A stretch of 64,000 nucleotides of DNA from Escherichia coli (lineage in GTDB: Bacteria; Pseudomonadota; Gammaproteobacteria; Enterobacterales; Enterobacteriaceae): assembly GCF_003334385.1 (NCBI RefSeq), contig NZ_QOWN01000006.1, one strand, 5' to 3'. A model generated the notes under the pieces. The model was given only the letters and a program-made list of their open reading frames with translations. It did not search any database and was not told where the DNA came from. Below are positions 1 to 46,412 of this stretch, piece after piece (within the stretch, counting starts at the first letter, position 1; every line of letters begins with the position of its first letter). The position numbers and the translations under genes were made by a program.

Positions 1-546
1 AAATCCGGCACGCGAGACATACATCGCCTGTTCAACCATCGACGAGGTGTTGTGCGCCAGTCGCAGCAAGTAACCAACTTCCAGTGCAGCGGTAATTTCA
101 TTGTCGAGGCTTTCATTTTCGCGAGACAGGAGATTCCCCTCGCTGACTAATGCATCCGATACGCCATTGACTGACAGGGTGCGTCGTCGGTTGAGTTCAA
201 TTTGCCAGGCGTGCTCGTCGCGATGCTGTTCGAACTCGGTTACAGCATTACGCAGTGAAGTGAAATCCAGTGGCGCTACGAGAGCTTCGCGCATGCCATT
301 ACGCAAAAAGATCAGTTTGTCGACGTTATACTGCAAATGCTTATCGAGCGCGTTGGCTACGTTTTCCAGATGATTACGCTGGCTGGAGATATAGGCATCT
401 TCCAGCACCACTACTTCACGCCAGGTGAGCAAGGTGGAAAAAAGCAATACCACGATAAAGCAGAGATTAACGACATGACCAGGCCCCAGGCGGCGTGCGA
501 GTTTTTTCAACCAGCTCTGGTTTTCCATTTTTGTCTCGTGCTGCAC
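1..546 (-). CDS. dgcQ: Diguanylate cyclase DgcQ (YedQ), N-terminal part only; gene runs off the window start
   Basis: Minus-strand frame open from a GTG at about 546 ([26 protein letters not shown]...) to position 1; matches recalled DgcQ N-terminus; synteny with yodC/yedI. Confidence 0.6.
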
Positions 547-589
547 CCTGACGACTCCCAACCTGCTTTTTTATGATTCTGGCATAACC

Positions 590-775
590 TGGCGATAGCG
601 TACCGCAAAACAGCGATAATTTTATAATGGTGGCATGATAAGACGCGACAGACATCGATAGTTTTATAACGTAGGCATGATAAGACGCGATAGCGTCGCA
701 TCAGGCAATTCAGTGCAGACACTGGCACACCCGACCGGATGCGACGTGAGCGCCACATCCGGTCGGGTGTTAATG
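590..775. repeat. REP/BIME-type extragenic palindromes (two copies of ggcatgataagacgcga plus palindrome cacccgaccggatg...catccggtcgggtg)
   Basis: Direct repeat at about 613-642 and 671-690; perfect inverted repeat at about 730-772; resembles E. coli REP families. Confidence 0.5.
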
Positions 776-783
776 ATACCCTT

Positions 784-966
784 TCAAACTTCTTCCGCAG
801 GACGACTTCCCTCCCCCGGAACAAGCTCGGTTTCATGAAAAGCTTCCCGCTTGACCCCGTAACCGTCATACCAACGACACTCAACCATACCGCTGGAGTA
901 TCCGGTGACAATCATCCGCGGGCCGCCCTCTTTAACCGTAACTTCCTCACTAACCATAAAGCTCAT
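784..966 (-). CDS. yodC: Small protein YodC (60 aa)
   Basis: 60-aa ORF in the expected position between dgcQ and yedI; sequence MSFMVSEEVTVKEGG... recalled as YodC. Confidence 0.5.
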   Translation of the reverse strand: MSFMVSEEVTVKEGGPRMIVTGYSSGMVECRWYDGYGVKREAFHETELVPGEGSRPAEEV

Positions 967-1044
967 ACTCGCCTCCTTTTTTCGAGTGAAACTTGTTCAC
1001 CTTAGTTGAAGATGGCGAATTTTGCATAATAGCCTGTGCGAGTA

Positions 1045-1962
1045 TTAATGTGCCTGACCGCGTATTTTCGCTACGGCTTTCACTCCCAGCACCACGATGC
1101 CGCCGATGATAAATCCAAGAATCAGATTTAAAACAGTCGGTAATATCATCGCCACCACTGCACTTTGCTGCCCGGCGAAATGTTCAATGGCGTGATGCAG
1201 CGGCGCAATACCATGTACCACAATCCCGCCGCCGACGAGGAACATCGCCAGCGTGCCGACAATCGATAACGCTTTCATCAGCCAGGGCGCGATAATCAAT
1301 AATCCTTTACCTAATGCCTGCATCAGCGCGCTGGATTTTTCCGCCAGCCAATACCCCAGGTCATCAATCTTAACGATAACCCCTACCAGACCGTAGACGC
1401 CCACGGTCACTACCAACGCGATGCCTGAAAGCACCAGCACCTGATTAAGCAACGGCGCTTCGGCCACAATCCCCAGCGTGATGGCGACGATTTCGGCAGA
1501 CAATATAAAATCGGTACGAATCGCCCCTTTTATTTTGTCCTTTTCAAACTTCAGCGGATCCTGCGCCGCCAGCTTCTCCAGACGCTGCTGGCTCTGCGCC
1601 GGATCTTCTTTATGTTTACGCGCCTCCAGCATATGCAGCACTTTCTCTACTCCTTCAAAGCAGAGAAACGCGCCACCAATCATCAACAGAGGCGTAATCG
1701 CCCACGGGATAAACGCACTGATGATCAGCGCCAGCGGCACCAGAATCACTTTATTAATCAGCGATCCTTTCGCCACGCCCCAGACCACGGGAAGTTCCCG
1801 GTTGGCCCGCACGCCTGAAACTTGTTGCGCATTGAGCGATAAGTCATCCCCTAATACACCGGCGGTTTTCTTCGCCGCCAGTTTGCCCATCACGGAGATA
1901 TCGTCCAGCAGTGTGGCGATATCATCGAGCAACGTCAGTAAACTACTCCCGGCCAAAAGCAT
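1045..1962 (-). CDS. yedI: DUF808 inner membrane protein YedI
   Basis: 305-aa hydrophobic ORF; synteny. Confidence 0.8.
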
Positions 1963-2134
1963 TCCCTCTCATTTTTATTGTTGAAGGGTGTAAGTATGAA
2001 GCAAAAACGGCAGCTCTGATACTTGCTTCACAGGTCAACATTTTTTTAACAATCAAGTGCAATTATATCTCTCGCCAGCAGAATGATTTTCACGTTTACT
2101 ATGAACCACCTTTTTATTTCCACCGTGAGGGATT

Positions 2135-3055
2135 ATGCGTTTCCGCCAGTTGTTACCGCTTTTTGGCGCGCTGTTTGCGTTGTATATCATTTGGGGCTCA
2201 ACCTATTTTGTCATTCGGATTGGCGTGGAAAGCTGGCCTCCGTTAATGATGGCAGGCGTTCGATTCCTGGCAGCCGGTATTTTATTGATGGCATTTTTGC
2301 TACTGCGCGGACACAAACTCCCCCCGCTACGTCCGCTGCTCAATGCCGCGCTGATTGGCCTGTTATTGCTGGCTGTCGGTAATGGCATGGTGACGGTTGC
2401 CGAACATCAAAATGTTCCTTCCGGCATCGCCGCCGTAGTGGTTGCAACCGTGCCCCTCTTTACCCTGTGCTTCAGCCGCCTGTTTGGCATTAAAACGCGC
2501 AAACTGGAATGGGTGGGTATTGCCATTGGGCTTGCCGGAATCATCATGCTCAATAGCGGTGGAAATTTAAGCGGCAATCCGTGGGGCGCGATTCTGATTT
2601 TAATCGGCTCGATTAGCTGGGCGTTTGGCTCGGTTTATGGCTCGCGCATTACCTTACCTGTAGGGATGATGGCGGGTGCGATTGAGATGCTGGCGGCAGG
2701 CGTGGTGTTAATGATCGCGTCGATGATTGCAGGTGAAAAACTGACGGCACTCCCTTCCCTTTCAGGCTTCCTTGCGGTCGGCTATCTGGCGCTGTTTGGT
2801 TCGATTATCGCCATTAACGCTTATATGTATTTAATCCGCAACGTCAGTCCGGCTCTCGCCACCAGCTACGCCTACGTTAACCCGGTGGTCGCGGTCTTGC
2901 TGGGTACGGGACTGGGCGGAGAAACGCTGTCGAAGATTGAATGGCTGGCGCTCGGCGTAATTGTCTTCGCGGTGGTACTGGTCACGTTGGGAAAATATCT
3001 CTTCCCGGCAAACCCCGTAGTTGCGCCAGTTATTCAGGACGCATCAAGCGAGTAA
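2135..3055 (+). CDS. yedA: EamA/DMT-family membrane transporter YedA
   Basis: 306-aa ORF with multiple hydrophobic segments; synteny upstream of vsr-dcm. Confidence 0.8.
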   Translation: MRFRQLLPLFGALFALYIIWGSTYFVIRIGVESWPPLMMAGVRFLAAGILLMAFLLLRGHKLPPLRPLLNAALIGLLLLAVGNGMVTVAEHQNVPSGIAAVVVATVPLFTLCFSRLFGIKTRKLEWVGIAIGLAGIIMLNSGGNLSGNPWGAILILIGSISWAFGSVYGSRITLPVGMMAGAIEMLAAGVVLMIASMIAGEKLTALPSLSGFLAVGYLALFGSIIAINAYMYLIRNVSPALATSYAYVNPVVAVLLGTGLGGETLSKIEWLALGVIVFAVVLVTLGKYLFPANPVVAPVIQDASSE

Positions 3056-3514
3056 ATGAATCCCCTGCGTGTCGATCTGCGCGCTGGCACCTTCGCCGCA
3101 GATCCACTCTTCCAGACGCTCGCTAAGCGCTTCATCCGTCAGCTTCTCGCGCCCACGTAATGCACACTCCCAGACAATCAATACGCGCCAGCCGAGTTCC
3201 TGCAAACGACTGATATCGCGGCGATCGCGTTCAACATTTTTACCTATCTTCTCCAGCCAGAACTCGGTTCGAGTCGCAGGCACTTTAAACAGATAGCAGT
3301 GATGATGATGCCAGAAGCAGCCGTGGGTAAATATCACGCAGCGATATTCATCAACGACAAAATCCGGGCGTCCGGGCAGACTGGCGTCCTGAACGCGAAA
3401 TGCCAGGCCCTGCCCGGTTAACAGACTGGCGAGGCGCTTCTCTATCGCCGTATCACGCGTGGCAATCGCGCGCATATTTTTGCTGCGAGTGGCCTTATCG
3501 TGAACGTCGGCCAT
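3044..3514 (-). CDS. vsr: Very-short-patch repair endonuclease Vsr
   Basis: Internal start [32 protein letters not shown]... within the listed 210-aa ORF; 156 aa; overlaps the dcm 3' end. Confidence 0.9.
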
Positions 3515-4913
3515 GTTGTGCCTCTTGCTGACGCAACGCCACCGCCTGTTTGATTTTTGGCTCAAGCAGTTTTGCCACCGCGGCAAAGACCGGCACGACC
3601 ACCGAGTTACCGAACTGGCGATAGGCCTGAGTGTCCGAAACCGGAATGCGGAATTTCGCTTCTCCCGGCGCTTCAAAACCCATTAAGCGCGCGCATTCCC
3701 GAGGCGTTAACCGACGTGGACGATGTTGCTGATTCAGCGGATCGTCAAAGTCTTTCTCACCCGTGGCCATATCCCAGCCGCGATCGATTAAAATTTCCGC
3801 GCCATCTTTGTAATAACGCGCAGACAGCGTACGCGTGACGCTTTGCGGATTGTTAGGATAGACCATTCCATAACCGAAGCCGTTACCGCGCGCCTGATGT
3901 TTTTTCGCATAACGATAGAGGTACTTCCACAGCACCGGCGTCAGGATATATTTCGCCTCGACCATCGGGTCCAGCAGCTGTGCCAGCGTCACTCGCTGTG
4001 CAGGGAAACATTCGCTGATATCACGCAGAGTAAAATCGGCTTTCAGATTCAGATCGCGACGAAAACCCACCAGCACGATGCGTTCACGGTGCTGCGGCAG
4101 AAAATGTTTACCATCGATGATTTTCGGATCGTCCGGCCCGTTATCTTCTGCATCAGCCACGTCATAGCCCAGTTCGTCCAGCGTCTGCATGATGATGCGG
4201 AACGTTTTACCCTGGTCGTGGCTTTTCAGGTTTTTGACGTTTTCGAGCACAAACATCGCCGGACGACGCGCGTCGATAATGCGCACCACATCAAAGAACA
4301 GCGTGCCCTGAGTATCGCAGGCAAAACCGTGCGCCCGCCCGAGCGAGTTCTTTTTCGATACGCCAGCCAGCGAAAATGGCTGACAAGGGAAACCGGCCAG
4401 TAAAACATCGTGTTCAGGAATGTGTTTACGAATATGTTCCGCCGCCGCCTCATCACTCACGCCTTCTTTATGGCTGAGGGTGATGTCGCGGATATCTTCA
4501 TTAAAATGATGCGTCGCCGGGTCGCAATAATGATTGGCTTTATAAGTGCGTACCGCATGTTTGTTCCATTCGCTGGTAAACACGCATTGTCCGCCAATCG
4601 ATTCAAAACCGCGACGGATGCCGCCAATTCCGGCAAATAGATCGATAAAGCGAAACGCATAATGCGGATGATGTGCCGGTGGTTTGGGTAACAACGTTTG
4701 CAGATGGGCGAACTCTTTCTCACTTAAACGGTGCCATGCCGAGTCATTCGCCAGCGCACGTTTTAAAATTGCCGCGCTCCAGTGATTCTCACCCACACCA
4801 TTAAGCTGCGCCACCAGCGTTTTAACATCATAAATTTGCAGCAGTTTCTCCAGCATTGCCTGTGCGGCATTCCCGGTGCTGTATGAATCGGTTACTGATA
4901 TATTTTCCTGCAT
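3495..4913 (-). CDS. dcm: DNA cytosine-5 methyltransferase Dcm
   Basis: Motifs FAGIGG and PCQPFS (catalytic Cys) present; start taken at MQENIS (alternative start 4922). Confidence 0.9.
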
Positions 4914-4979
4914 AGATTTCACCGGCCATCTGAGATGGCCGACAGGTTAACATAATTACAGCCATTTAGGGCCACGCGC

Positions 4980-5675
4980 TCAGCCAGCGGATGAAAACGC
5001 ATCTATCACCTTGTGATCGACACCTTCATTCTCCCCCGCCAGTTCGGCACTGAGCTTCGCCATAAACTCGACTAAAAAATGCGCGTTGTGCTGCGCCAGC
5101 TGCTTGCCTCTTGCGGTTTGCATGGTTTGCGGTAGCTTCAGCAACTTAGTCTGGAAATGATCCAGCGCGTAGCGTTTATCATCAAGCGGGCGATGCTGTG
5201 CGAGCGGATCTTCACCATCAAACAGCGCCACGCCCAATGCCCCTGAAACGGCAAACACGCGCGCCAGGCCAATCGCTCCCAGGGCTTCCAGCCGATCTGC
5301 ATCCAGGACGATTTTAGCTTCCGTGGTTAAGGGGGCGATTTGCGCGCTGAAACTGTGAGCGGCAATGGCATGACAAACGGCCTCAATTTTCTCCGCCGGA
5401 AATTGCACGAACTCTTCACGGAGCAGGCGACGCGTCTCTTCTGCTGCCAGGATTGAAGAACGCTGCCTTTGCGGATGATTTTTCGCCAGGCTCACAATAT
5501 CGTGAAAATAACAGGCGGTTAAAATCACCAGCATATCGACGTCGTCATCTGCCGCCAGCTTCTGTGCCGTAGCCCAGACGCGGCGAAAATGACACACGTC
5601 ATGGGCCGCGTCCTGGTGCTGATGATGGTTTTTCAACCAATTTTCGAACTGTGCCTGCCAGTGTTGTAAGTCCAT
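4980..5675 (-). CDS. yedJ: HD-domain phosphohydrolase YedJ
   Basis: 231-aa ORF with H..HD motif (CYFHDIV); synteny. Confidence 0.75.
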
Positions 5676-5714
5676 ACGCGCTCCGTTGCCAAAGAGTCGC
5701 CACCTTAGCAGTTT

Positions 5715-6017
5715 TTATTCATAGCGTCTGCTACGTGCGGGACGAGGTCGGGTGTACCAGGCAATGCTGCCTAACAATGCCCCGACCAGAGCCATAAATA
5801 AAAATCCGACCAGTGCCCCTAACCACTTTCCCGCGGTAGAGCCTAAATCGCTTTCAAATCCCGACACGGGGGCATCGGGGATCCGGCTCATCACCCAGAT
5901 GTAACGCGCCATTGCCCAGACGAAATAGCCACACCATGTATAGAAAGCCCACAAAGCCAGTTTGCCGCCAGGGCTGCGAGAGAGTCTCTCTTCCATCTTT
6001 GTCGAACCGTATTCCAT
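5715..6017 (-). CDS. yedR: Small inner membrane protein YedR (start uncertain; ORF could extend to 6098 with a TTG)
   Basis: Hydrophobic small ORF; synteny. Confidence 0.55.
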   Translation of the reverse strand: MEYGSTKMEERLSRSPGGKLALWAFYTWCGYFVWAMARYIWVMSRIPDAPVSGFESDLGSTAGKWLGALVGFLFMALVGALLGSIAWYTRPRPARSRRYE

Positions 6018-6243
6018 TTTGAGATAACCCGGAAAATTCAGACTTAGTACTATTATGTGATAAAAGTCACATTTTTCCACATTGGATGAGCCAGTCAAGA
6101 CTCACTCATTTTTTGAACAAATAGATAATTTTTGCGCAACGGCAGTGAATACAGGAAAAATCGTTTTGAGCGATTTTATTTATCTTTGATATCGGCTTTA
6201 TTAATTCATTTAATCAATATATTAGCACTGATTACAATTATAC

Positions 6244-6335
6244 CTTTTTATTATTCTGTGTCATGATGCTTACGTTATTAGCCTTTTATCGTCTTGTTTA
6301 TATTTTTTGGGCCGGCATGATGCCGGCTTTTTTTA
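6244..6335 (+). ncRNA. Candidate small RNA (RseX-like position) ending at a strong intrinsic terminator
   Basis: Hairpin gggccggcatgatgccggc plus T-run at about 6309-6335 with no upstream plus-strand CDS; TACAAT -10-like hexamer at about 6232; RseX is reported between yedR and yedS in K-12 (recalled, not aligned). Confidence 0.3.
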
Positions 6336-6645
6336 TACCTTCATTAATGTGCGCGTGATCACACCAAGTGTTTAGCGCAACAATCATTGATACTCCCTAT
6401 CTTTCCGCTTAACTCATAACATATTGATATACATTTATAATTTTCATGAATATTTATATTTGGAATTCATGATTCTGAATTATATTAAATAGATTAGAAA
6501 CATTTTGAAATCTTTTAAATACATTTGTTGCATGTAATCCTTAAAATAAAATGAAGTTCATAGAATAGTATCCAAATGTGCTTTTTTTTGGATAACGGCA
6601 CTTATTGATATATTCATGAAGATTATAATCACAAGGGAATACATA

Positions 6646-7704
6646 ATGAAAAGAAAAGTTCTGGCAATGCTGGTCCCGGCGTTATTAGTTGCTGGCGCAG
6701 CAAATGCGGCTGAAATTTATAATAAAAATGGCAATAAACTGGATTTGTACGGCAAGATGGTTGGTGAGCGCATTCTGACCGACCGTGAAAATGGTGAAAA
6801 AGGCGATAATTCTCAAGATACCTCTTATGCCCGTGTAGGCGTGAAAGGTGAAACTCAGATCAACCCTGAATTGACTGGTTACGGTCAGTTTGAACTAGAC
6901 CTGGAAGCATCAAACAGACACAACCCTGACCAAACTCGTTTGGCTTATGCTGGTTTGAGTTACAAAGATTTTGGTTCATTCGACTATGGTCGTAATGTCG
7001 GTGTCGCGTATGATGCAGAAGCATTTACTGATATGTTTGTTGAGTGGGGCGGTGATTCATGGGCTGGTACTGACCTGTTCATGACCAACCGTACCAACGG
7101 TGTTGCAACCTATCGTAACACAGATTTCTTTGGCATGGTTGAAGGTCTAAATTTTGCTCTGCAATATCAGGGTAAAAATGAAGGTACAGGCAACTACAAA
7201 GCAAATGGCGATGGCCATGGTTTATCTGTAACTTACACTATTGACGGTTTCTCATTTGCTGGTGCTTACGCAAACTCTGATCGTACTGATTTCCAGTCTA
7301 GTGATAGTAAAGGTGAAAAAGCAGAAGTTTGGGCACTGTCAACAAAATATGATGCCAACAACGTCTATGCTGCTGTGATGTACGGTGAATCTCACAACAT
7401 GAATTCCGACGACGGTGATGTTGTGAACAAAACACAAAACTTCGAAGTTGTTCTGCAATATCAGTTCGACTTCGGTCTGCGTCCATCCATCGGTTACTCC
7501 TATTCTAAAGCACTGGACGTAGCAGGTTACAAAGATTCTGATCGTCTGAACTACATTGAAATCGGTACCTGGTATTACTTCAATAAGAACATGAACGTAT
7601 ATACCGCTTATCAGATCAACCTGCTTGATAAGAGTGATTATGTTCTCGCTCATGGACTGAACACCGACGACCAACTCGCATTTGGTATCGTCTACCAGTT
7701 CTAA
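6646..7704 (+). CDS. yedS: OmpC/OmpF-family general porin (YedS-like), apparently intact
   Basis: Signal peptide MKRKVLAMLVPALLVAGAANA, C-terminal YQF, beta-barrel porin pattern; RBS aaggg upstream of the ATG at 6646. Confidence 0.85.
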   Translation: MKRKVLAMLVPALLVAGAANAAEIYNKNGNKLDLYGKMVGERILTDRENGEKGDNSQDTSYARVGVKGETQINPELTGYGQFELDLEASNRHNPDQTRLAYAGLSYKDFGSFDYGRNVGVAYDAEAFTDMFVEWGGDSWAGTDLFMTNRTNGVATYRNTDFFGMVEGLNFALQYQGKNEGTGNYKANGDGHGLSVTYTIDGFSFAGAYANSDRTDFQSSDSKGEKAEVWALSTKYDANNVYAAVMYGESHNMNSDDGDVVNKTQNFEVVLQYQFDFGLRPSIGYSYSKALDVAGYKDSDRLNYIEIGTWYYFNKNMNVYTAYQINLLDKSDYVLAHGLNTDDQLAFGIVYQF

Positions 7705-7746
7705 TCAGCCAACGCGCCGCGGCGTGTTACTGTAAAACTTAACACT

Positions 7747-7785
7747 AGCCTGAGTTCGTCCCTCATCGAACTCAGGCTTTTTTAT
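7747..7785 (+). terminator. Intrinsic terminator of the porin gene
   Basis: agcctgagttcg...cgaactcaggct stem followed by a T-run. Confidence 0.7.
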
Positions 7786-8295
7786 TGGCATTTTATCTCC
7801 CTCTGCGGCACGCGCAATTGCCAAAGCATATCGATACAGCACCTTACCCTGCCCCTGCTGGCACAATAACATCTACCAGCGACTCTTCCAGCCAAGACCC
7901 AAATGCATTTCTTTATGAATTAATCTGCAACAAAACCGCCTCCCATATAGAAATATTTGCAAAAATAGTGCATGAAATACGCTTTTTCTCTACCAATCCG
8001 GGATATAAATATTCATCAGCACCACAATATTCCACAGCACTAAATCTCTCCCCGTCGCCCCGTACCTCTGATAATGGTCTAAAATCATTGAGGCCACTTG
8101 CGACGACGTTGCTCAATAAGGAAAATTTGGCGTGAATAATATTCAACACCAGTGCAGCATCATCATTACATACTTACACCCGCCGACGACCGCTTTCGAT
8201 ATATTGACTCAATTTTCCAGCCTGGTTAAAAATAGCGACCAGCTCAGTCGAAAATATAGTGACTACCCTAACTAAGCAACAATAAGGAATACACT

Positions 8296-9147
8296 ATGAC
8301 TGTTCAAACAAGTAAAAATCCGCAGGTCGATATTGCTGAAGATAATGCATTCTTCCCTTCAGAATATTCGCTTAGCCAATATACCAGTCCCGTCTCTGAT
8401 CTTGATGGCGTGGACTATCCAAAACCGTATCGCGGTAAGCATAAAATTCTGGTGATCGCCGCGGACGAACGTTATTTGCCAACCGATAACGGAAAACTGT
8501 TCTCGACCGGTAACCATCCGATTGAAACGTTGCTGCCGTTGTATCATCTCCATGCTGCAGGTTTCGAATTCGAAGTGGCGACCATTTCCGGTCTGATGAC
8601 CAAGTTTGAATACTGGGCTATGCCGCACAAAGATGAAAAAGTAATGCCATTCTTTGAGCAGCATAAATCGTTGTTCCGCAATCCGAAGAAACTCGCGGAT
8701 GTTGTCGCCAGCCTCAACGCTGACAGCGAATATGCAGCAATCTTTGTTCCTGGTGGTCATGGCGCACTTATTGGTTTACCAGAAAGCCAGGACGTAGCTG
8801 CTGCTTTGCAGTGGGCAATCAAAAATGACCGTTTTGTTATCTCCCTTTGCCACGGCCCGGCGGCTTTTCTGGCGCTTCGCCACGGCGATAACCCACTGAA
8901 TGGTTATTCCATTTGCGCATTCCCAGACGCCGCAGACAAACAAACGCCAGAGATAGGCTATATGCCGGGTCATCTCACCTGGTACTTCGGCGAAGAGCTG
9001 AAGAAAATGGGCATGAACATTATTAATGACGACATCACCGGGCGAGTACATAAGGACCGTAAAGTTCTCACCGGCGACAGTCCTTTCGCAGCGAATGCGT
9101 TGGGTAAACTGGCGGCGCAGGAAATGCTGGCAGCTTATGCGGGTTAA
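8296..9147 (+). CDS. hchA: Hsp31 chaperone / glyoxalase III (DJ-1/PfpI family)
   Basis: 283-aa ORF with catalytic Cys context SLCHGPAA; synteny. Confidence 0.9.
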   Translation: MTVQTSKNPQVDIAEDNAFFPSEYSLSQYTSPVSDLDGVDYPKPYRGKHKILVIAADERYLPTDNGKLFSTGNHPIETLLPLYHLHAAGFEFEVATISGLMTKFEYWAMPHKDEKVMPFFEQHKSLFRNPKKLADVVASLNADSEYAAIFVPGGHGALIGLPESQDVAAALQWAIKNDRFVISLCHGPAAFLALRHGDNPLNGYSICAFPDAADKQTPEIGYMPGHLTWYFGEELKKMGMNIINDDITGRVHKDRKVLTGDSPFAANALGKLAAQEMLAAYAG

Positions 9148-23945: not shown

Positions 23946-24905
23946 ATGATGGAGTCACCGCAAACGCAATCTGAAATCTCTATTCACCAGTTGGTGGTCG
24001 GGAAACCTGCAAACGATGGCAATATTCCTGCTCAGTGTGAACTGCTGCGCTGTTCGTTGCAGGAAGGTATGGATATTTTGCTCTGGAGGGGCCATTTTGC
24101 GCGGCCTGAGACGTTGCAGCTACACGACGATCTGGGCAGGATTAACTTCTCGTGCATCCTGGAAGGCACATCGCGCTTTGCGATTCAGGGACTCCGGCGC
24201 CACACCGACTGGGAGCTTGCGCGCAATCGTCATTACATTACCCATACGCCAGACTGTCGCGGCAGCGCCTCCTATTGTGGCCGATTCGAGAGCATTACCC
24301 TCTCCTTCAGCCCTGAAACCCTCGCGCTGTGGGTGCCGGATATTAGCGCGGTCATTAAGAATAAGATCGACTCCCACTGCTGTTGCCAGCAGCAGCGTTG
24401 TAATGCTGAAACCCACTTAACGGCTCAGGCCTTGCGTCACGCGCTGATGCGCATGCACGGCGGCTTCAGTCATGAACAAAAGCCGTCGACGCTATGGTTG
24501 CAGGGGCAAAGTCTGGTCATGCTCAGTCTGGTGCTGGATGAACATCGCGAAGACGCCAGTTGCCTCTCCTGCCACTTCAACCCGATGGAACGCCAGAAAC
24601 TGCTGCGGGCGAAGGATCTGCTGCTGGCTGATCTGACGCAAGCGCCGGGCGTCGCGGAGCTGGCCAGAGAGTCCGGTCTGAGCGTTCTCAAAATTAAGCG
24701 AGGCTTCCGCGTTCTGTTCAACAACAGCGTCTATGGCCTGTTTCAGGCTGAACGAATGCAGGAAGCCAGAAGACGCCTGGCCAACGGCAATACCTCCGTC
24801 ATGACGGTGGCGGCCGATCTGGGCTATGCCAACGCCAGCCATTTCTCTGCCGCCTTCCAGAAACAGTTTGGCGTAACTCCTTCGACCTTTAAACGCGGGA
24901 TGTAA
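23946..24905 (+). CDS. ybtA: AraC-family transcriptional activator of yersiniabactin genes
   Basis: 319 aa; C-terminal AraC helix-turn-helix; divergent from ybtP. Confidence 0.85.
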   Translation: MMESPQTQSEISIHQLVVGKPANDGNIPAQCELLRCSLQEGMDILLWRGHFARPETLQLHDDLGRINFSCILEGTSRFAIQGLRRHTDWELARNRHYITHTPDCRGSASYCGRFESITLSFSPETLALWVPDISAVIKNKIDSHCCCQQQRCNAETHLTAQALRHALMRMHGGFSHEQKPSTLWLQGQSLVMLSLVLDEHREDASCLSCHFNPMERQKLLRAKDLLLADLTQAPGVAELARESGLSVLKIKRGFRVLFNNSVYGLFQAERMQEARRRLANGNTSVMTVAADLGYANASHFSAAFQKQFGVTPSTFKRGM

Positions 24906-24937
24906 CCGGGGTCGCGCCCCCCTAAACTCCTCCCTGA

Positions 24938-24976
24938 CAGAGGCCCGGATACCCCATCCGGGCCTCTGTTCTTTCC
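24938..24976 (+). terminator. Intrinsic terminator after ybtA
   Basis: cagaggcccggat...atccgggcctctg stem followed by ttcttt. Confidence 0.65.
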
Positions 24977-24986
24977 GCCTGTTACC

Positions 24987-25056
24987 AACCCGAAACGGGC
25001 ATAAATAAACCCGTTTCGGGTAGCATCCAATTGTTAATAATTATTATTCTCATATG
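24987..25056 (+). promoter_or_regulatory. irp2 promoter region: inverted repeat cccgaaacggg...cccgtttcggg (presumed YbtA site) plus Fur-box-like ttaataattattattctcat
   Basis: Palindrome at about 24989-25020, nearly identical to the one upstream of fyuA; AT-rich Fur-like element at about 25031-25056. Confidence 0.6.
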
Positions 25057-25095
25057 AGTAATGCTTTTCGGTAAGACGTGCCATCAGGAGGAAGA

Positions 25096-28000
25096 ATGAT
25101 TTCTGGCGCACCATCTCAGGATTCGCTGTTACCGGACAACCGCCACGCGGCTGATTACCAACAATTACGCGAGCGGCTCATACAGGAACTGAATTTAACG
25201 CCGCAGCAGTTACATGAAGAGAGCAACCTGATCCAGGCCGGTCTGGATTCCATAAGATTGATGAGATGGTTACACTGGTTTCGTAAAAATGGCTACCGCC
25301 TTACCCTTCGCGAGCTGTATGCCGCCCCCACGCTGGCGGCATGGAACCAGTTAATGCTCAGCCGGTCGCCGGAGAACGCGGAAGAAGAAACGCCGCCCGA
25401 CGAATCATCCTGGCCGAACATGACCGAAAGTACCCCCTTCCCATTGACGCCAGTACAGCACGCCTACCTGACGGGCCGCATGCCGGGGCAGACGCTTGGC
25501 GGCGTGGGTTGCCACCTGTATCAGGAGTTTGAAGGCCATTGTCTGACGGCGTCGCAGCTGGAGCAGGCCATCACGACCTTGCTGCAACGCCACCCAATGC
25601 TGCATATCGCCTTTCGCCCCGACGGGCAGCAGGTCTGGCTACCGCAACCTTACTGGAACGGCGTCACCGTTCATGATTTACGCCATAACGACGCTGAAAG
25701 CCGCCAGGCCTATCTGGACGCACTGCGCCAGCGCCTGAGCCACCGTCTTTTACGCGTGGAAATCGGCGAAACGTTTGATTTTCAGCTGACGCTCTTGCCG
25801 GACAATCGCCACCGCCTCCATGTCAATATTGACCTGCTGATTATGGATGCCTCCAGCTTTACGCTTTTCTTCGATGAGCTTAACGCCCTGCTGGCCGGAG
25901 AATCGCTGCCGGCTATCGACACCCGCTATGATTTCCGCTCGTATTTGCTGCACCAGCAGAAGATCAATCAACCACTGAGAGACGTCGCGCGCGCTTACTG
26001 GCTGGCGAAAGCATCGACGCTTCCCCCCGCGCCCGTCTTGCCGCTGGCCTGCGAACCCGCCACGCTACGTGAAGTCCGTAATACCCGACGCCGCATGATT
26101 GTCCCGGCAACACGCTGGCACGCCTTTAGCAACCGGGCCGGCGAGTATGGCGTGACGCCGACAATGGCACTGGCGACCTGTTTTTCTGCCGTGCTGGCTC
26201 GCTGGGGCGGCCTGACGCGTCTGCTGCTTAACATCACCTTATTCGACCGCCAGCCGCTGCAACCGGCGGTTAGCGCGATGCTTGCCGACTTCACCAATAT
26301 TCTTCTGCTGGATACCGCCTGCGATGGCGATACCGTCAGCAACCTGGCGCGTAAAAACCAGCTCACGTTTACGGAGGACTGGGAGCATCGCCACTGGTCC
26401 GGCGTCGAATTACTCCGTGAACTCAAACGCCAGCAGCGCTACCCCCACGGCGCCCCGGTGGTATTTACCAGCAATCTGGGGCGTTCCCTCTACAGCAGCC
26501 GCGCAGAATCGCCGTTGGGCGAGCCGGAATGGGGCATCTCGCAAACGCCGCAGGTCTGGATAGATCATCTGGCGTTCGAGCATCACGGCGAGGTCTGGCT
26601 ACAATGGGACAGCAACGACGCGCTGTTCCCTCCGGCGTTAGTCGAAACATTGTTCGACGCCTACTGCCAGTTGATTAACCAACTCTGCGATGACGAAAGC
26701 GCCTGGCAAAAGCCGTTCGCAGATATGATGCCCGCCAGCCAGCGCGCGATACGCGAACGGGTCAACGCCACCGGCGCCCCCATTCCCGAAGGCTTGCTGC
26801 ATGAAGGCATTTTCCGTATCGCTCTGCAACAGCCGCAGGCGCTGGCGGTAACGGACATGCGTTATCAGTGGAATTATCATGAGCTGACAGACTATGCCCG
26901 CCGTTGCGCGGGCAGGTTAATCGAGTGCGGGGTTCAGCCCGGCGATAATGTGGCTATCACGATGTCGAAAGGCGCAGGACAACTTGTTGCGGTTCTGGCC
27001 GTCCTGCTGGCCGGGGCGGTTTACGTTCCGGTTTCGCTGGATCAGCCTGCCGCACGGCGCGAGAAAATCTACGCTGACGCCAGCGTCCGGCTGGTGCTCA
27101 TTTGTCAGCACGACGCCAGCGCCGGGTCAGACGATATTCCCGCCCTTGCCTGGCAGCAGGCCATTGAGGCGGAGCCGATCGCCAACCCGGTAGTACGCGC
27201 CCCCACGCAACCGGCCTACATTATCTACACCTCCGGCTCTACCGGTACGCCGAAAGGGGTAGTCATTTCTCACCGGGGAGCGCTTAACACCTGTTGCGAT
27301 ATCAATACCCGCTATCAGGTTGGCCCGCATGACAGGGTGCTGGCCCTCTCCGCCCTACATTTTGATTTATCGGTTTACGACATTTTTGGCGTACTGCGCG
27401 CGGGCGGCGCGCTGGTGATGGTGATGGAAAATCAACGGCGCGATCCTCACGCATGGTGTGAGCTGATCCAGCGCCATCAGGTCACGCTCTGGAACAGCGT
27501 CCCGGCGCTGTTCGATATGCTGCTGACCTGGTGTGAAGGTTTCGCCGACGCCACGCCGGAAAACCTGCGCGCAGTGATGCTTTCCGGCGACTGGATCGGG
27601 CTTGACCTCCCCGCCCGTTATCGGGCCTTCCGGCCACAAGGACAATTTATCGCGATGGGCGGCGCCACCGAGGCGTCTATCTGGTCTAACGCCTGCGAAA
27701 TTCACGACGTCCCCGCCCACTGGCGCTCCATCCCTTACGGTTTTCCGCTAACCAACCAACGCTACCGGGTGGTGGATGAACAGGGCCGGGACTGCCCTGA
27801 CTGGGTGCCGGGTGAATTATGGATTGGCGGCATTGGGGTCGCGGAAGGCTATTTCAACGATCCCCTGCGTAGCGAGCAGCAATTTTTGACGCTCCCGGAC
27901 GAGCGCTGGTATCGCACCGGCGATCTCGGCTGCTACTGGCCAGATGGCACAATCGAGTTCCTCGGTCGTCGCGACAAGCAGGTCAAAGTCGGAGGATATC

Positions 28001-42682: not shown

Positions 42683-44260
42683 ATGAATTCTTCCTTTGAA
42701 TCTCTGATTGAACAGTATCCCTTACCCATTGCCGAACAGTTGCGCCACTGGGCGGCCCGTTATGCCTCGCGAATTGCCGTCGTTGATGCAAAGGGGTCGT
42801 TAACCTACAGCGCGCTTGATGCACAAGTTGACGAACTTGCCGCAGGTCTGTCATCACTGGGTTTGCGTTCGGGGGAGCATGTAATTGTGCAGCTTCCCAA
42901 CGACAACGCGTTTGTTACCCTGCTGTTCGCCTTGTTAAGACTGGGCGTTATCCCCGTGCTGGCGATGCCCTCGCAACGGGCGCTGGATATCGACGCGCTG
43001 ATTGAGCTGGCGCAACCCGTCGCTTACGTTATTCACGGGGAAAACCACGCAGAGCTGGCCCGACAGATGGCGCACAAACACGCCTGCTTGCGTCATGTTC
43101 TGGTCGCTGGAGAGACCGTGAGCGACGATTTTACGCCGCTCTTCTCCCTTCACGGTGAGCGACAGGCATGGCCGCAGCCTGATGTTTCCGCCACCGCGTT
43201 GTTGTTGCTCTCAGGCGGCACAACCGGCACGCCAAAACTCATCCCGCGCCGACATGCCGACTATAGCTATAACTTCAGCGCTTCTGCTGAACTGTGCGGC
43301 ATCAGCCAACAGAGCGTGTATCTCGCCGTCCTCCCGGTGGCGCATAACTTTCCGCTGGCCTGCCCCGGTATTCTGGGAACGCTTGCCTGCGGCGGAAAAG
43401 TGGTGCTGACCGACAGCGCCAGCTGTGATGAGGTGATGCCTTTAATCGCGCAGGAAAGAGTGACTCACGTCGCCCTGGTTCCGGCGCTGGCGCAATTATG
43501 GGTGCAGGCCAGGGAGTGGGAAGACAGCGACCTTTCGTCGCTGCGCGTCATTCAGGCAGGCGGCGCCCGGCTCGACCCGACGCTTGCTGAGCAGGTTATC
43601 GCCACCTTTGACTGTACCCTGCAACAGGTTTTCGGTATGGCGGAAGGCCTGCTCTGTTTTACCCGGCTGGACGATCCGCATGCCACCATTCTCCACAGCC
43701 AGGGGCGCCCGTTGTCCCCTCTGGATGAAATCCGCATCGTTGATCAAGACGAGAACGACGTCGCGCCGGGCGAAACCGGGCAATTGTTAACGCGCGGCCC
43801 TTATACCATTTCGGGCTATTACCGCGCCCCTGCCCACAACGCGCAGGCCTTTACCGCGCAAGGGTTTTACCGCACAGGCGACAATGTCAGGCTGGATGAG
43901 GTGGGGAACCTGCACGTTGAGGGACGCATAAAAGAGCAGATCAACCGCGCCGGAGAAAAAATAGCCGCGGCTGAAGTGGAATCGGCACTGCTGCGTTTAG
44001 CGGAAGTGCAAGATTGCGCGGTGGTCGCCGCGCCGGACACGCTGCTTGGCGAGCGGATTTGCGCGTTTATCATCGCGCAGCAGGTGCCAACTGACTATCA
44101 GCAGTTGCGTCAACAACTGACCCGTATGGGGCTCAGCGCGTGGAAAATTCCTGACCAAATCGAGTTTCTGGACCACTGGCCGCTCACCGCCGTCGGCAAG
44201 ATAGACAAAAAACGCCTGACGGCTCTCGCCGTCGACCGTTATCGCCATTCTGCCCAATAA
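42683..44260 (+). CDS. ybtE: Salicyl-AMP ligase (aryl acid adenylating enzyme) YbtE
   Basis: 525 aa; adenylation motifs SGGTTGTPK and YRTGD. Confidence 0.85.
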   Translation: MNSSFESLIEQYPLPIAEQLRHWAARYASRIAVVDAKGSLTYSALDAQVDELAAGLSSLGLRSGEHVIVQLPNDNAFVTLLFALLRLGVIPVLAMPSQRALDIDALIELAQPVAYVIHGENHAELARQMAHKHACLRHVLVAGETVSDDFTPLFSLHGERQAWPQPDVSATALLLLSGGTTGTPKLIPRRHADYSYNFSASAELCGISQQSVYLAVLPVAHNFPLACPGILGTLACGGKVVLTDSASCDEVMPLIAQERVTHVALVPALAQLWVQAREWEDSDLSSLRVIQAGGARLDPTLAEQVIATFDCTLQQVFGMAEGLLCFTRLDDPHATILHSQGRPLSPLDEIRIVDQDENDVAPGETGQLLTRGPYTISGYYRAPAHNAQAFTAQGFYRTGDNVRLDEVGNLHVEGRIKEQINRAGEKIAAAEVESALLRLAEVQDCAVVAAPDTLLGERICAFIIAQQVPTDYQQLRQQLTRMGLSAWKIPDQIEFLDHWPLTAVGKIDKKRLTALAVDRYRHSAQ

Positions 44261-44269
44261 GCGCAAACC

Positions 44270-44340
44270 GACCCGAAACAGGTTGAAATAAACCCGTTTC
44301 GGGTAGCACTACTATTAGAAATAGTTATCATTTTCAATTC
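44270..44340 (+). promoter_or_regulatory. fyuA promoter region: YbtA-type repeat plus Fur-box-like gaaatagttatcattttcaattc
   Basis: aaataaacccgtttcgggtagca is identical over about 23 bp to the irp2 promoter copy. Confidence 0.6.
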
Positions 44341-44390
44341 ACCATTGTCGGTATTTTTGGCGTTTCGCCGTCTTACAGGGACTCACAACA

Positions 44391-46412
44391 ATGAAAATGA
44401 CACGGCTTTATCCTCTGGCCTTGGGGGGATTATTGCTCCCCGCCATTGCTAATGCCCAGACTTCACAGCAAGACGAAAGCACGCTGGTGGTTACCGCCAG
44501 TAAACAATCTTCCCGCTCGGCATCAGCCAACAACGTCTCGTCTACTGTTGTCAGCGCGCCGGAATTAAGCGACGCCGGCGTCACCGCCAGCGACAAACTC
44601 CCCAGAGTCTTGCCCGGGCTCAATATTGAAAATAGCGGCAACATGCTTTTTTCGACGATCTCGCTACGCGGCGTCTCTTCAGCGCAGGACTTCTATAACC
44701 CCGCCGTCACCCTGTATGTCGATGGCGTCCCTCAGCTTTCCACCAACACCATCCAGGCGCTTACCGATGTGCAAAGCGTGGAGTTGCTGCGAGGCCCACA
44801 GGGAACGTTATATGGCAAAAGCGCTCAGGGCGGGATCATCAACATCGTCACCCAGCAGCCGGACAGCACGCCGCGCGGCTATATTGAAGGCGGCGTCAGT
44901 AGCCGCGACAGTTATCGAAGTAAGTTCAACCTGAGCGGCCCCATTCAGGATGGCCTGCTGTACGGCAGCGTCACCCTGTTACGCCAGGTTGATGACGGCG
45001 ACATGATTAACCCCGCGACGGGAAGCGATGACTTAGGCGGCACCCGCGCCAGCATAGGGAATGTGAAACTGCGTCTGGCGCCGGACGATCAGCCCTGGGA
45101 AATGGGCTTTGCCGCCTCACGCGAATGTACCCGCGCCACCCAGGACGCCTATGTGGGATGGAATGATATTAAGGGCCGTAAGCTGTCGATCAGCGATGGT
45201 TCACCAGACCCGTACATGCGGCGCTGCACTGACAGCCAGACCCTGAGTGGGAAATACACCACCGATGACTGGGTTTTCAACCTGATCAGCGCCTGGCAGC
45301 AGCAGCATTATTCGCGCACCTTCCCTTCCGGTTCGTTAATCGTCAATATGCCTCAGCGCTGGAATCAGGATGTGCAGGAGCTGCGCGCCGCAACCCTGGG
45401 CGATGCGCGTACCGTTGATATGGTGTTTGGGCTGTACCGGCAGAACACCCGCGAGAAGTTAAATTCAGCCTACGACATGCCGACAATGCCTTATTTAAGC
45501 AGTACCGGCTATACCACCGCTGAAACGCTGGCCGCATACAGTGACCTGACCTGGCATTTAACCGATCGTTTTGATATCGGCGGCGGCGTGCGCTTCTCGC
45601 ATGATAAATCCAGTACACAATATCACGGCAGCATGCTCGGCAACCCGTTTGGCGACCAGGGTAAGAGCAATGACGATCAGGTGCTCGGGCAGCTATCCGC
45701 AGGCTATATGCTGACCGATGACTGGAGAGTGTATACCCGTGTAGCCCAGGGATATAAACCTTCCGGGTACAACATCGTGCCTACTGCGGGTCTTGATGCC
45801 AAACCGTTCGTCGCCGAGAAATCCATCAACTATGAACTTGGCACCCGCTACGAAACCGCTGACGTCACGCTGCAAGCCGCGACGTTTTATACCCACACCA
45901 AAGACATGCAGCTTTACTCTGGCCCGGTCGGGATGCAGACATTAAGCAATGCGGGTAAAGCCGACGCCACCGGCGTTGAGCTTGAAGCGAAGTGGCGGTT
46001 TGCGCCAGGCTGGTCATGGGATATCAATGGCAACGTGATCCGTTCCGAATTCACCAATGACAGTGAGTTGTATCACGGTAACCGGGTGCCGTTCGTACCA
46101 CGTTATGGCGCGGGAAGCAGCGTGAACGGCGTGATTGATACGCGCTATGGCGCACTGATGCCCCGACTGGCGGTTAATCTGGTCGGGCCGCATTATTTCG
46201 ATGGCGACAACCAGTTGCGGCAAGGCACCTATGCCACCCTGGACAGCAGCCTGGGCTGGCAGGCGACTGAACGGATGAACATTTCCGTCTATGTCGATAA
46301 CCTGTTCGACCGTCGTTACCGTACCTATGGCTACATGAACGGCAGCAGCGCCGTCGCGCAGGTCAATATGGGTCGCACCGTCGGTATCAATACGCGAATT
46401 GATTTCTTCTGA
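44391..46412 (+). CDS. fyuA: TonB-dependent outer membrane receptor for ferric yersiniabactin (FyuA/Psn)
   Basis: 673 aa; signal peptide; TonB-dependent receptor pattern ending in aromatic F. Confidence 0.9.
   Translation: MKMTRLYPLALGGLLLPAIANAQTSQQDESTLVVTASKQSSRSASANNVSSTVVSAPELSDAGVTASDKLPRVLPGLNIENSGNMLFSTISLRGVSSAQDFYNPAVTLYVDGVPQLSTNTIQALTDVQSVELLRGPQGTLYGKSAQGGIINIVTQQPDSTPRGYIEGGVSSRDSYRSKFNLSGPIQDGLLYGSVTLLRQVDDGDMINPATGSDDLGGTRASIGNVKLRLAPDDQPWEMGFAASRECTRATQDAYVGWNDIKGRKLSISDGSPDPYMRRCTDSQTLSGKYTTDDWVFNLISAWQQQHYSRTFPSGSLIVNMPQRWNQDVQELRAATLGDARTVDMVFGLYRQNTREKLNSAYDMPTMPYLSSTGYTTAETLAAYSDLTWHLTDRFDIGGGVRFSHDKSSTQYHGSMLGNPFGDQGKSNDDQVLGQLSAGYMLTDDWRVYTRVAQGYKPSGYNIVPTAGLDAKPFVAEKSINYELGTRYETADVTLQAATFYTHTKDMQLYSGPVGMQTLSNAGKADATGVELEAKWRFAPGWSWDINGNVIRSEFTNDSELYHGNRVPFVPRYGAGSSVNGVIDTRYGALMPRLAVNLVGPHYFDGDNQLRQGTYATLDSSLGWQATERMNISVYVDNLFDRRYRTYGYMNGSSAVAQVNMGRTVGINTRIDFF

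What the first reader, a model, noticed from the sequence alone, without database searches (positions are those of the whole stretch)
24987..25025. Near-identical 23-bp repeat shared by the irp2 and fyuA promoters, each paired with a Fur-like box
aaataaacccgtttcgggtagca occurs upstream of both irp2 (about 25003-25025) and fyuA (about 44286-44308), each preceded by the partner half-site acccgaaac(g/a)gg and followed within 10-30 bp by an AT-rich Fur-box-like element. This fits the established dual control of yersiniabactin genes by the YbtA activator and Fur repression. The ybtP/ybtA divergent region has a clear Fur-like box (about 23859-23877) but only a weak version of the repeat.
Basis: partly seen in the sequence, partly recalled or inferred. 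Interest (0 to 1): 0.3.

Follow-up and report, generated by a model that had tools for sequence, protein, structure and literature searches.

The report
Known YbtA operator with Fur box
The repeated 23-bp sequence is the promoter-proximal half of the already described binding site for YbtA, the yersiniabactin regulator, and it sits next to a Fur iron-repressor box in the irp2 and fyuA promoters of the E. coli high-pathogenicity island, so it is real and functional but already known.

Summary
AAATAAACCCGTTTCGGGTAGCA occurs exactly twice in the window, at 25003-25025 and 44286-44308, and none is expected by chance. Each copy is preceded by ACCCGAAAC(G/A)GG and followed by a Fur-box match in the same register.

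The window is the E. coli high-pathogenicity island (ybtS-X-Q-P, ybtA, irp2, irp1, ybtU-T-E, fyuA).

These are the "repeated sequences" (RS) that the literature treats as YbtA operators, each paired with a Fur box.

New details from this work:
- The ybtP/ybtA region carries a third, degenerate copy of the whole 38-bp site on the minus strand, in ybtP orientation. It coincides with published RS1/RS2.
- A matrix built from these sites finds the same bipartite box beside 53 of 59 YbtA homologues (33-97% identity) across Proteobacteria. It finds none in shuffled sequence or in 21 unrelated AraC loci.
- A Fur box follows at a fixed distance, although it was not part of the search matrix.
- Family-wide, the half-sites are direct repeats 21 bp apart. 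The perfect palindrome is peculiar to the island.

Hairpin or terminator function is not supported.

Verdict: already known, low interest.

The parts
24988..25002 (+). irp2 promoter, distal YbtA half-site (ACCCGAAACGGGCAT)
   Evidence: Scores 15.4 bits with the family half-site matrix. It is the arm of the 12/12 inverted repeat.
25003..25025 (+). Copy 1 of the 23-bp exact repeat. It covers the A-rich spacer end, the proximal half-site core and TAGCA.
   Evidence: Exact match; 0 expected by chance.
25009..25023 (+). irp2 promoter, proximal YbtA half-site (ACCCGTTTCGGGTAG)
   Evidence: Scores 19.9 bits, joint top half-site score in the window.
25033..25051 (.). irp2 Fur box (GTTAATAATTATTATTCTC)
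   Evidence: 15/19 to the Fur consensus, joint best in the window. The sequence is identical to the Fur binding site named in PMC11225919, whose irp2 promoter fragment was shifted by Fur.
25042..25047 (+). Inferred -10 hexamer of the irp2 promoter (TATTAT), inside the Fur box
   Evidence: Inference from the family-wide conserved TATCAT at composite positions 56-61. PMC11225919 also predicts that the -10 overlaps the Fur site. No transcription start data were available.
44271..44285 (+). fyuA promoter, distal YbtA half-site (ACCCGAAACAGGTTG)
   Evidence: 11/12 to the irp2 arm. Scores 9.3 bits in direct orientation and 14.1 bits reversed.
44286..44308 (+). Copy 2 of the 23-bp exact repeat
   Evidence: Exact match.
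44292..44306 (+). fyuA promoter, proximal YbtA half-site (ACCCGTTTCGGGTAG)
   Evidence: Scores 19.9 bits.
44317..44335 (.). fyuA Fur box (AGAAATAGTTATCATTTTC)
   Evidence: 13/19 to the consensus. It sits in the same register (position 47) as the other two promoters and contains the family-conserved TTATCATT.
23906..23920 (-). ybtP promoter, distal degenerate half-site (GACCAATGCGGGTAT on the minus strand). It corresponds to the RS retained in construct p1RS.
   Evidence: Scores 11.3 bits. The 1RS primer 5' end maps to 23905.
23885..23899 (-). ybtP promoter, proximal half-site (AACCGAATGGGGTAG on the minus strand). It lies in the ybtA 5' leader.
   Evidence: Scores 17.0 bits, third best half-site in the window. 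The 2RS primer 5' end maps to 23878. PMC8805033 places two YbtA sites in the ybtA leader.
23856..23874 (.). Fur box shared by the divergent ybtP and ybtA promoters (GTGAATAATAACCATTATC)
   Evidence: 15/19. The near-identical pESI sequence lies in a ybtA promoter fragment that was shifted by Fur (PMC11225919).
23946..24905 (+). ybtA, the AraC-family regulator that is expected to read these sites
   Evidence: RefSeq annotation. Pfam PF12833 and PF00165 are on record for the identical protein.

Best explanation
Each 23-bp repeat is the promoter-proximal part of a bipartite operator for YbtA, the AraC-family regulator encoded between the two sites.

Anatomy of the operator (shown):
- It is about 36 bp long and holds two ~15-bp half-sites with family consensus a-n-CCGAT-n-CGGGT-n-G.
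- The half-sites are 21 bp apart, so they lie on the same face of the helix.
- An A-rich spacer (AAATA) separates them.
- The proximal half-site ends in GGGTAG.

How it is thought to work:
- Inferred: the proximal half-site abuts or overlaps a poor -35 hexamer (GTAGCA). Yersiniabactin-loaded YbtA, probably as a dimer, then recruits RNA polymerase in the way AraC does from I1-I2.
- Shown for position, reported for binding: a Fur box starts about 10 bp further downstream and covers the inferred -10 (TATTAT or TATCAT). Fe-Fur therefore blocks the promoter whatever YbtA does.
- The result is an AND gate. irp2-irp1-ybtUTE and fyuA fire only when iron is low and the siderophore signal is present.
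- In the ybtP/ybtA region one degenerate copy of the same cassette faces ybtP. It lies in the ybtA leader, which fits activation of ybtP and autorepression of ybtA.
For: Sequence in the window:
- The 23-mer is an exact repeat with partner half-sites, and none is expected by chance.
- Three promoters share one architecture in one register.
- The three best half-site scores in 64 kb are the three promoter-proximal half-sites.
- There are only three composite sites in the window, all in ybt promoters.
- No consensus sigma-70 promoter was found, as expected for activator-dependent promoters.

Distribution in E. coli:
- The 45-bp site occurs only in E. coli genomes that carry the island: 2267 of 5426. 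The median is 4 places per genome, which I read as two sites, each matching on both strands.

Phylogenetic footprint:
- A 38-nt matrix gave 153 hits in 80 loci plus the window, and 0 in block shuffles.
- 53 of 59 loci with a full-length YbtA homologue have a hit. In 48 the hit is divergently upstream of the regulator gene, and in 23 it is just downstream.
- There were 0 hits in 21 loci that matched only the AraC helix-turn-helix domain.
- A Fur-box consensus (AATGnGAATnATTATCATT) is conserved at fixed distance, although it was outside the matrix.
- In the two divergent loci examined (Pectobacterium L004, Pseudomonas L027), the genes next to the sites include a TonB-dependent siderophore receptor, an RhtX/FptX-family transporter and ABC transporters.

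Literature:
- RS are treated as YbtA binding sites in the irp2, fyuA and ybtA/irp6 promoters (PMC5634559; PMC8725597; PMC8805033).
- Fur shifts the irp2 and ybtA promoter fragments (PMC11225919).
- A fyuA-promoter::luc fusion with ybtA is the standard yersiniabactin biosensor (PMC7592755; PMC3893282).
Against: - No binding experiment could be done or read here. The primary papers with footprints and mutational data (Fetherston 1996; Anisimov 2005a, b) are not held, so footprint borders were not compared with 24988-25023 or 44271-44306.
- PMC8725597 still calls the sites 'putative' or 'predicted'.
- The -35 and -10 positions and the start sites are inferred, not measured.
- The third published RS of the ybtA promoter (between 23788 and 23837) gives no match to the family half-site matrix; the best score is 0 bits.
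- PMC5634559 reports ybtA-promoter activity in a strain without YbtA, so another factor may also use this region.
- The matrix was seeded from sites chosen for similarity to the island's arms, so conservation within positions 1-38 is partly circular. The shuffles, the negative-control loci and the Fur box outside the matrix are not circular.
Confidence: 0.93

Rival explanations
1. The inverted repeat acts as an RNA or DNA hairpin. It would be a terminator or attenuator ending ybtA and irp2-ybtE transcription, or a processing or stability element, rather than a protein operator.
For: - As RNA the two sites fold into strong hairpins: -22.4 and -20.2 kcal/mol, z about -5.
- The fyuA site starts 11 bp after the ybtE stop codon.
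- The pattern scan flags minus-strand 'terminator-like' mini-hairpins at 25021-25009 and 44304-44292.
Against: - No T-run follows the hairpin on the transcribed strand, and the scan found no plus-strand terminator there.
- ybtA already has its own stronger hairpin with a T-rich tail at 24936-24970, -29.3 kcal/mol.
- The third copy, at ybtP, does not fold better than shuffles (z -1.5).
- In 41 non-island sites the arms are less complementary (6.5/12) than they are identical as direct repeats (8.3/12). The sequence is conserved, not the pairing.
- The minus-strand hits come from the small internal palindrome CCCG-N3-CGGG followed by the A-rich spacer.
Confidence: 0.03
2. The repeat is bound mainly by a different factor, such as a host-encoded AraC-like protein or another global regulator, and YbtA acts elsewhere or indirectly.
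For: - PMC5634559 found ybtA-promoter activity that needed the full RS region in DH5-alpha, which lacks YbtA, and proposed an unknown AraC-like factor.
- PMC8725597 calls the sites 'predicted'.
Against: - The motif travels with YbtA homologues across alpha-, beta- and gamma-Proteobacteria. It sits directly beside the regulator gene in 53 of 59 loci and is absent from 21 unrelated AraC loci.
- In E. coli it occurs only in island-positive genomes.
- Several papers cite direct YbtA binding (Anisimov 2005).
Confidence: 0.03
3. The 23-bp identity is only a historical trace of promoter duplication or gene conversion between irp2 and fyuA, with no sequence-specific function.
For: - The identity is exact over 23 bp while the flanks have diverged.
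- A recombinant junction between the two promoters exists in Klebsiella indica.
Against: - The same half-site consensus is kept in loci whose regulator is only 33-55% identical, where no recent duplication can explain it.
- Spacer and centre positions vary, whereas CCG...CGGGTAG does not.
- Duplication may explain the origin of the identity, but it does not exclude function.
Confidence: 0.01

Closest known systems
[quoted passage not shown] 1996; Anisimov et al. 2005)
   Same: Same island, same promoters and same regulator gene next door. The degenerate ybtP/ybtA copy maps onto RS1/RS2 as delimited by E. coli reporter constructs. This is the same element, not an analogue.
   Different: Nothing substantive. 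The published footprint borders and the Yersinia sequences themselves could not be retrieved for a base-by-base comparison.
PchR-box of the Pseudomonas aeruginosa pyochelin genes (Michel et al. [quoted passage not shown]
   Same: - The regulator is a siderophore-sensing AraC-type protein.
- The box is bipartite and spans about 32 bp, which matches composite positions 3-34 here.
- It sits in the promoters of biosynthesis, receptor and regulator genes, and combines with Fur.
- Pseudomonas loci with 39-41% YbtA homologues carry related composite sites followed by Fur boxes.
   Different: The Pseudomonas sites score lower (22-33 bits against 42-52) and their distal half-site is more diverged.
AraC I1-I2 half-sites at the araBAD promoter (general AraC/XylS class II activation; established knowledge)
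   Same: Two direct half-sites with a 21-bp period. The proximal one abuts or overlaps a weak -35. The ligand-bound dimer recruits RNA polymerase.
   Different: - The sequence is different.
- Each YbtA half-site has an internal palindrome (CCCG-N3-CGGG).
- No distal O2-type looping site is known.
- The overlap with the -35 is inferred here, not measured.
Fur box (GATAATGATAATCATTATC)
   Same: 15/19, 15/19 and 13/19 matches that overlap the inferred -10. The irp2 and ybtA promoter fragments are shifted by Fur (PMC11225919).
   Different: The fyuA box is a weaker match on its own. Its support comes from the fixed register and from family-wide conservation.

Membership tests
YbtA operator (RS) of the high-pathogenicity island | Lies in the promoter regions of fyuA/psn, irp2 and the divergent ybtA-ybtP(irp6) region of a ybt locus | tested here: met
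   The sites are 73 bp and 85 bp upstream of the irp2 (25096) and fyuA (44391) start codons, and in the ybtP-ybtA intergenic region.
YbtA operator (RS) of the high-pathogenicity island | A repeated sequence shared between the promoters | tested here: met
   The 23-mer is exact in two promoters. The third copy matches 26/38, the best non-self match in the window and above all shuffles. A three-way alignment shows invariant columns.
YbtA operator (RS) of the high-pathogenicity island | Coincides with experimentally delimited RS | tested here: met
   This was tested for the ybtA/ybtP copy only. The p2RS and p1RS primers of PMC5634559 start at 23878 and 23905 and bracket the two half-sites at 23885-23899 and 23906-23920. 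The irp2 and fyuA footprints could not be read.
YbtA operator (RS) of the high-pathogenicity island | Bound by YbtA and required for yersiniabactin-dependent activation | not testable with these tools
   Reported in papers cited by PMC5634559, PMC8725597 and PMC3672683. The primary papers are not held.
YbtA operator (RS) of the high-pathogenicity island | Co-occurs with a ybtA-type regulator gene | tested here: met
   53 of 59 homologue loci carry the motif beside the regulator, and 0 of 21 unrelated AraC loci do. In E. coli it occurs only in island-positive genomes.
Fur box | Match to the 19-bp consensus well above background | tested here: met
   The irp2 and ybtA/ybtP boxes match 15/19 and are the two best of about 128,000 positions. 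The fyuA box matches 13/19, which is not exceptional on its own because 21 positions reach it.
Fur box | Overlaps the core promoter and is bound by Fur | tested here: inconclusive
   The identical irp2 sequence and a near-identical ybtA sequence lie in fragments shifted by purified Fur in PMC11225919. The overlap with the -10 is predicted, not mapped. No data were read for fyuA.
AraC/XylS class II activator site | Two half-sites in direct orientation about 21 bp apart | tested here: met
   In the family consensus CCGATnCGGGT recurs at positions 3-13 and 24-34. Direct identity is 8.3/12 against 6.5/12 inverted complementarity.
AraC/XylS class II activator site | The proximal half-site overlaps or abuts the -35 hexamer | tested here: inconclusive
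   Conserved TATCAT at positions 56-61 would put the -35 at positions 33-38 (GTAGCA). No start-site data were available, and the sigma-70 scan found no consensus promoter.
Intrinsic terminator | A G+C-rich hairpin followed by a T-run on the transcribed strand | tested here: not met
   The hairpin is present, but no T-run follows it. The scan reports only minus-strand mini-hairpins.
PchR-box | Sequence match to the published 32-bp PchR-box | not tested
The only evidence is indirect: related sites lie beside Pseudomonas homologues.

The most novel reading that the evidence does not exclude
The YbtA box followed by a Fur box in a fixed register is an old, portable promoter cassette. Siderophore-sensing YbtA/PchR-type regulators share it across alpha-, beta- and gamma-Proteobacteria. 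Its half-sites are direct repeats with a 21-bp period, and only the island's copies have become a perfect palindrome.

Because the island carries two near-identical cassettes 19 kb apart, recombination between them can excise the whole biosynthetic operon and leave regulator, exporter and receptor in place. That would be a ready-made 'receptor-only' genotype, as the ybtA-fyuA junction of Klebsiella indica suggests.

The pattern itself is well supported here. The doubt is whether it has already been described at this breadth, and whether the K. indica junction is a real deletion with any biological consequence.
Probability: 0.35. Interest if true: 0.3.

Novelty: already known. Interest (0 to 1): 0.1.

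Why it matters
These sites set the regulatory logic of yersiniabactin, a siderophore strongly associated with extraintestinal virulence in E. coli, Klebsiella and Yersinia. Expression needs low iron (Fur released) and the siderophore signal (YbtA).

The fyuA promoter is already used as a yersiniabactin biosensor. Nothing here changes that picture.

The practical gain is a family-wide matrix for the YbtA-type box plus its Fur box. It could be used to annotate the regulons of uncharacterised yersiniabactin- or pyochelin-like clusters.

Tried and rejected
Literature:
- I tried to read the primary papers and reviews: PMC3148425, PMC175194, PMC172914 and the DOI of Anisimov 2005. None is held.
- Full-text searches for the motif strings and for the PchR-box sequence found nothing useful.

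Yersinia sequence:
- I tried to obtain a Yersinia locus through cluster members of YbtA and FyuA. Only E. coli, Klebsiella and Salmonella members were listed, so no base-by-base comparison with Y. pestis was made.

Conservation within the island:
- Plasmid-borne ybt loci are at least 98% identical, so they carry no footprinting information.

Promoter scan:
- The sigma-70 consensus scan found no promoter in either region. I take this as consistent with activator dependence, not as evidence against a promoter.

Half-site search:
- The half-site alone with up to 2 mismatches is not enriched over chance: 7 found against 4.75 expected. Only the composite site and the matrix are informative.

Third published RS:
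- I searched for it with the family half-site matrix between 23788 and 23837. There was no match.

Terminator and hairpin reading:
- Rejected.

K. indica-type junction:
- I searched E. coli genomes and plasmids for it and found none.

Full report
**What is in the sequence**

The 23-mer AAATAAACCCGTTTCGGGTAGCA occurs at 25003-25025 and 44286-44308. It occurs nowhere else in the window, even when three mismatches are allowed. None of 100 dinucleotide-preserving shuffles produced a match.

Each copy is preceded by ACCCGAAAC(G/A)GG, at 24988-24999 and 44271-44282. This is the reverse complement of the CCCGTTTCGGGT inside the 23-mer. When the two regions are anchored on the 23-mer they stay in register without gaps from about 24984 to 25025.

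**Where it is**

Window 23600-25300 is 100% identical to many E. coli chromosomes, where RefSeq annotates ybtP, ybtA and irp2. The window differs at 42 positions from strain 7/2 over 16000-47000.

That stretch is annotated as asn-tRNA, a frameshifted integrase, ybtS-X-Q-P (minus strand), ybtA, irp2, irp1, ybtU, ybtT, ybtE and fyuA. This is the high-pathogenicity island.

The first site lies between ybtA (stop at 24905) and irp2 (start at 25096). The second lies between ybtE (stop at 44260) and fyuA (start at 44391).

**Fur boxes**

I scanned the whole window for the 19-bp Fur consensus.
- The two best matches, both 15/19, are 25033-25051 (irp2) and 23856-23874 (ybtP/ybtA).
- The fyuA region has a 13/19 match at 44317-44335.
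- In all three promoters the best Fur match starts at position 46 or 47 of the composite site.

The irp2 sequence GTTAATAATTATTATTCTC is exactly the Fur binding site named in PMC11225919. In that paper purified Fur shifted the irp2 and ybtA promoter fragments.

**A third copy**

I scanned the window with the 38-nt composite site, accepting either the irp2 or the fyuA base at each position.
- The best non-self hit is 23883-23920 on the minus strand, at 26/38. The next best is 23, and the maximum in 20 shuffles is 24.
- Read in the ybtP direction, it has the same layout as the other two: distal half-site, ATAAATA spacer, proximal half-site ending GGGTAG, then the Fur box.
- The reporter-construct primers of PMC5634559, which define 'two RS' and 'one RS' fragments of the ybtA promoter, start at 23878 and 23905. 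They bracket exactly these two half-sites.
- PMC8805033 likewise places two YbtA sites in the ybtA 5' leader.

It faces ybtP and corresponds to published RS1/RS2.

**Literature**

- PMC5634559 states that the irp2, fyuA and divergent irp6/ybtA promoters contain repeated sequences that bind YbtA. It proposes binding as a homodimer with yersiniabactin, with Fur as co-regulator.
- PMC8725597 shows the same elements in UTI89 and calls them predicted YbtA sites.
- PMC7592755 and PMC3893282 use a fyuA-promoter::luciferase fusion with ybtA as a yersiniabactin sensor.
- The primary papers (Fetherston 1996; Anisimov 2005) are not held. I therefore did not compare footprint borders for irp2 and fyuA.

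**Distribution in E. coli**

The 45-bp site is found in 2267 of 5426 complete E. coli genomes. That is essentially the same number that carry ybtA-irp2 (2268). The median is four places per genome, which I read as two sites that each match on both strands. I infer that it is not a dispersed repeat.

**Phylogenetic footprint**

Island copies in Enterobacteriaceae plasmids are at least 98% identical and so carry no information. I therefore collected YbtA homologues, aligned 20 of them and fetched 80 genomic loci. Of these, 59 have full-length homologues (33-97% identity) and 21 match only the C-terminal helix-turn-helix domain.

A 38-nt matrix built from 18 sites gave these results:
- 153 hits of at least 14 bits, against none in block-shuffled sequence.
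- 53 of the 59 homologue loci have a hit. In 48 it lies divergently just upstream of the regulator gene, and in 23 just downstream.
- The 21 control loci have none.

From 44 non-redundant sites the consensus is aaCCGATnCGGGtnGAAAtaGAcCcGATtCGGGTAGa. It is followed, after about six variable bases, by aAatGnGAATnATTATCATTt.

The second block is a Fur box. It was outside the matrix, so its conservation at a fixed distance is independent evidence that the two elements work as one cassette.

In the two divergent loci I examined, Pectobacterium (L004) and Pseudomonas (L027), the genes next to the sites are siderophore transport genes. They include a TonB-dependent siderophore receptor, an RhtX/FptX-family transporter and ABC transporters.

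**Direct or inverted repeat**

- In the family consensus, CCGATnCGGGT recurs at positions 3-13 and 24-34, a 21-bp period.
- Outside the island the two halves are more alike as direct repeats (8.3/12) than they are complementary as inverted repeats (6.5/12). Perfect complementarity is limited to the island's irp2-type sites.
- Each half-site has an internal palindrome (CCCG-N3-CGGG). That is why the island's copies, with AAA against TTT in the centre, read as an inverted repeat.

**Mechanism**

Shown: the positions, the sequences, their conservation and their co-occurrence with the regulator.

Reported by others: YbtA binding, the dependence of irp2, fyuA and ybtP expression on YbtA, autorepression of ybtA, and Fur binding.

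Inferred here:
- The conserved TATCAT (island: TATTAT at 25042-25047, TATCAT at 44326-44331, TATTAT at 23865-23860 on the minus strand) is the -10.
- That puts a poor -35 (GTAGCA) overlapping the end of the proximal half-site, as at AraC-activated promoters.
- It also puts the Fur box over the -10.
- The absence of any consensus sigma-70 promoter fits activator dependence.

**Rivals**

The hairpins that the island's sites could form are strong. Against a hairpin function:
- No T-run follows them.
- ybtA has its own terminator-like hairpin at 24936-24970.
- The ybtP copy does not fold better than shuffles.
- Pairing is not what is conserved across the family.

A different binding protein is unlikely, because the motif travels with the regulator gene. 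A purely historical duplication cannot explain conservation at 33-55% regulator identity.

**Verdict**

The element is already known. The added value is a clearer anatomy and a family-wide motif. Interest is low.

Noticed in passing
L001:3186-4400 (Klebsiella indica TOUT106), compared with window 24890-25100 and 44240-44400: K. indica has ybtP-ybtA followed directly by fyuA, and irp2-irp1-ybtUTE are missing. The junction is a hybrid promoter with an irp2-type distal half-site and a fyuA-type Fur box and leader. This is what recombination between the two near-identical cassettes would produce. No E. coli complete genome or PLSDB plasmid shows this junction.
   Followed up: partly
window 24936-24970: A strong hairpin (-29.3 kcal/mol, z -7.5) followed by CTTTCC lies 31 bp after the ybtA stop codon. 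It is probably the ybtA terminator and is separate from the YbtA operator.
   Followed up: partly
window about 23812-23828; loci L004, L005, L010, L011, L013, L017 and L020-L024, about 20-25 nt beyond the Fur box of the divergent promoter: A conserved GTCGAG/GTCGAC box lies beyond the Fur box in the divergent promoters of many YbtA-homologue loci. The island's counterpart (GACGCCAAAAACGACAA on the plus strand) falls in the interval where the literature places the third RS. It could be RS3 or the -35 of the regulator's own promoter.
   Followed up: partly
window 23788-23837: Published constructs imply a third YbtA site here, but the family half-site matrix finds nothing. The best candidate is GACAATTCAGGGTGG at 0 bits.
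   Followed up: yes
window 23689 vs 23779 (minus strand): The ybtP start codon is ambiguous. RefSeq annotates 23689 (570 aa), while the longest ORF starts at 23779 (600 aa). This changes the ybtP leader length by 90 nt.
   Followed up: no
window 25021-25009 and 44304-44292 (minus strand): The pattern scan calls 'terminator-like' mini-hairpins here. They come from the internal palindrome of the proximal half-site (ACCCGAAACGGGT) followed by the A-rich spacer read on the other strand.
   Followed up: yes
window 58967-58981; 50699-50717; 4526-4544: A lone half-site-like sequence, GGCCGATTCGGGTAA (14.4 bits), lies at 58967-58981, and two 14/19 Fur-consensus matches lie at the other two positions. 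All three are outside the ybt genes. None has a partner element, so they are probably chance.
   Followed up: no
L002:11033-11070, L003:11037-11074: In Klebsiella oxytoca and K. michiganensis the irp2 site differs from E. coli in the spacer (AAATAG, CACAAATAA) and in the centre of a half-site (GATTC for GTTTC). CCG...CGGGTAG is kept. This shows which positions tolerate change.
   Followed up: partly
window 1-8400 vs NZ_CP023820.1: The window is not colinear with strain 7/2 upstream of about 8.4 kb. That strain has an IS1 insertion between a truncated HD-domain gene and hchA. The annotation from that record was therefore used only for 16-47 kb.
   Followed up: no
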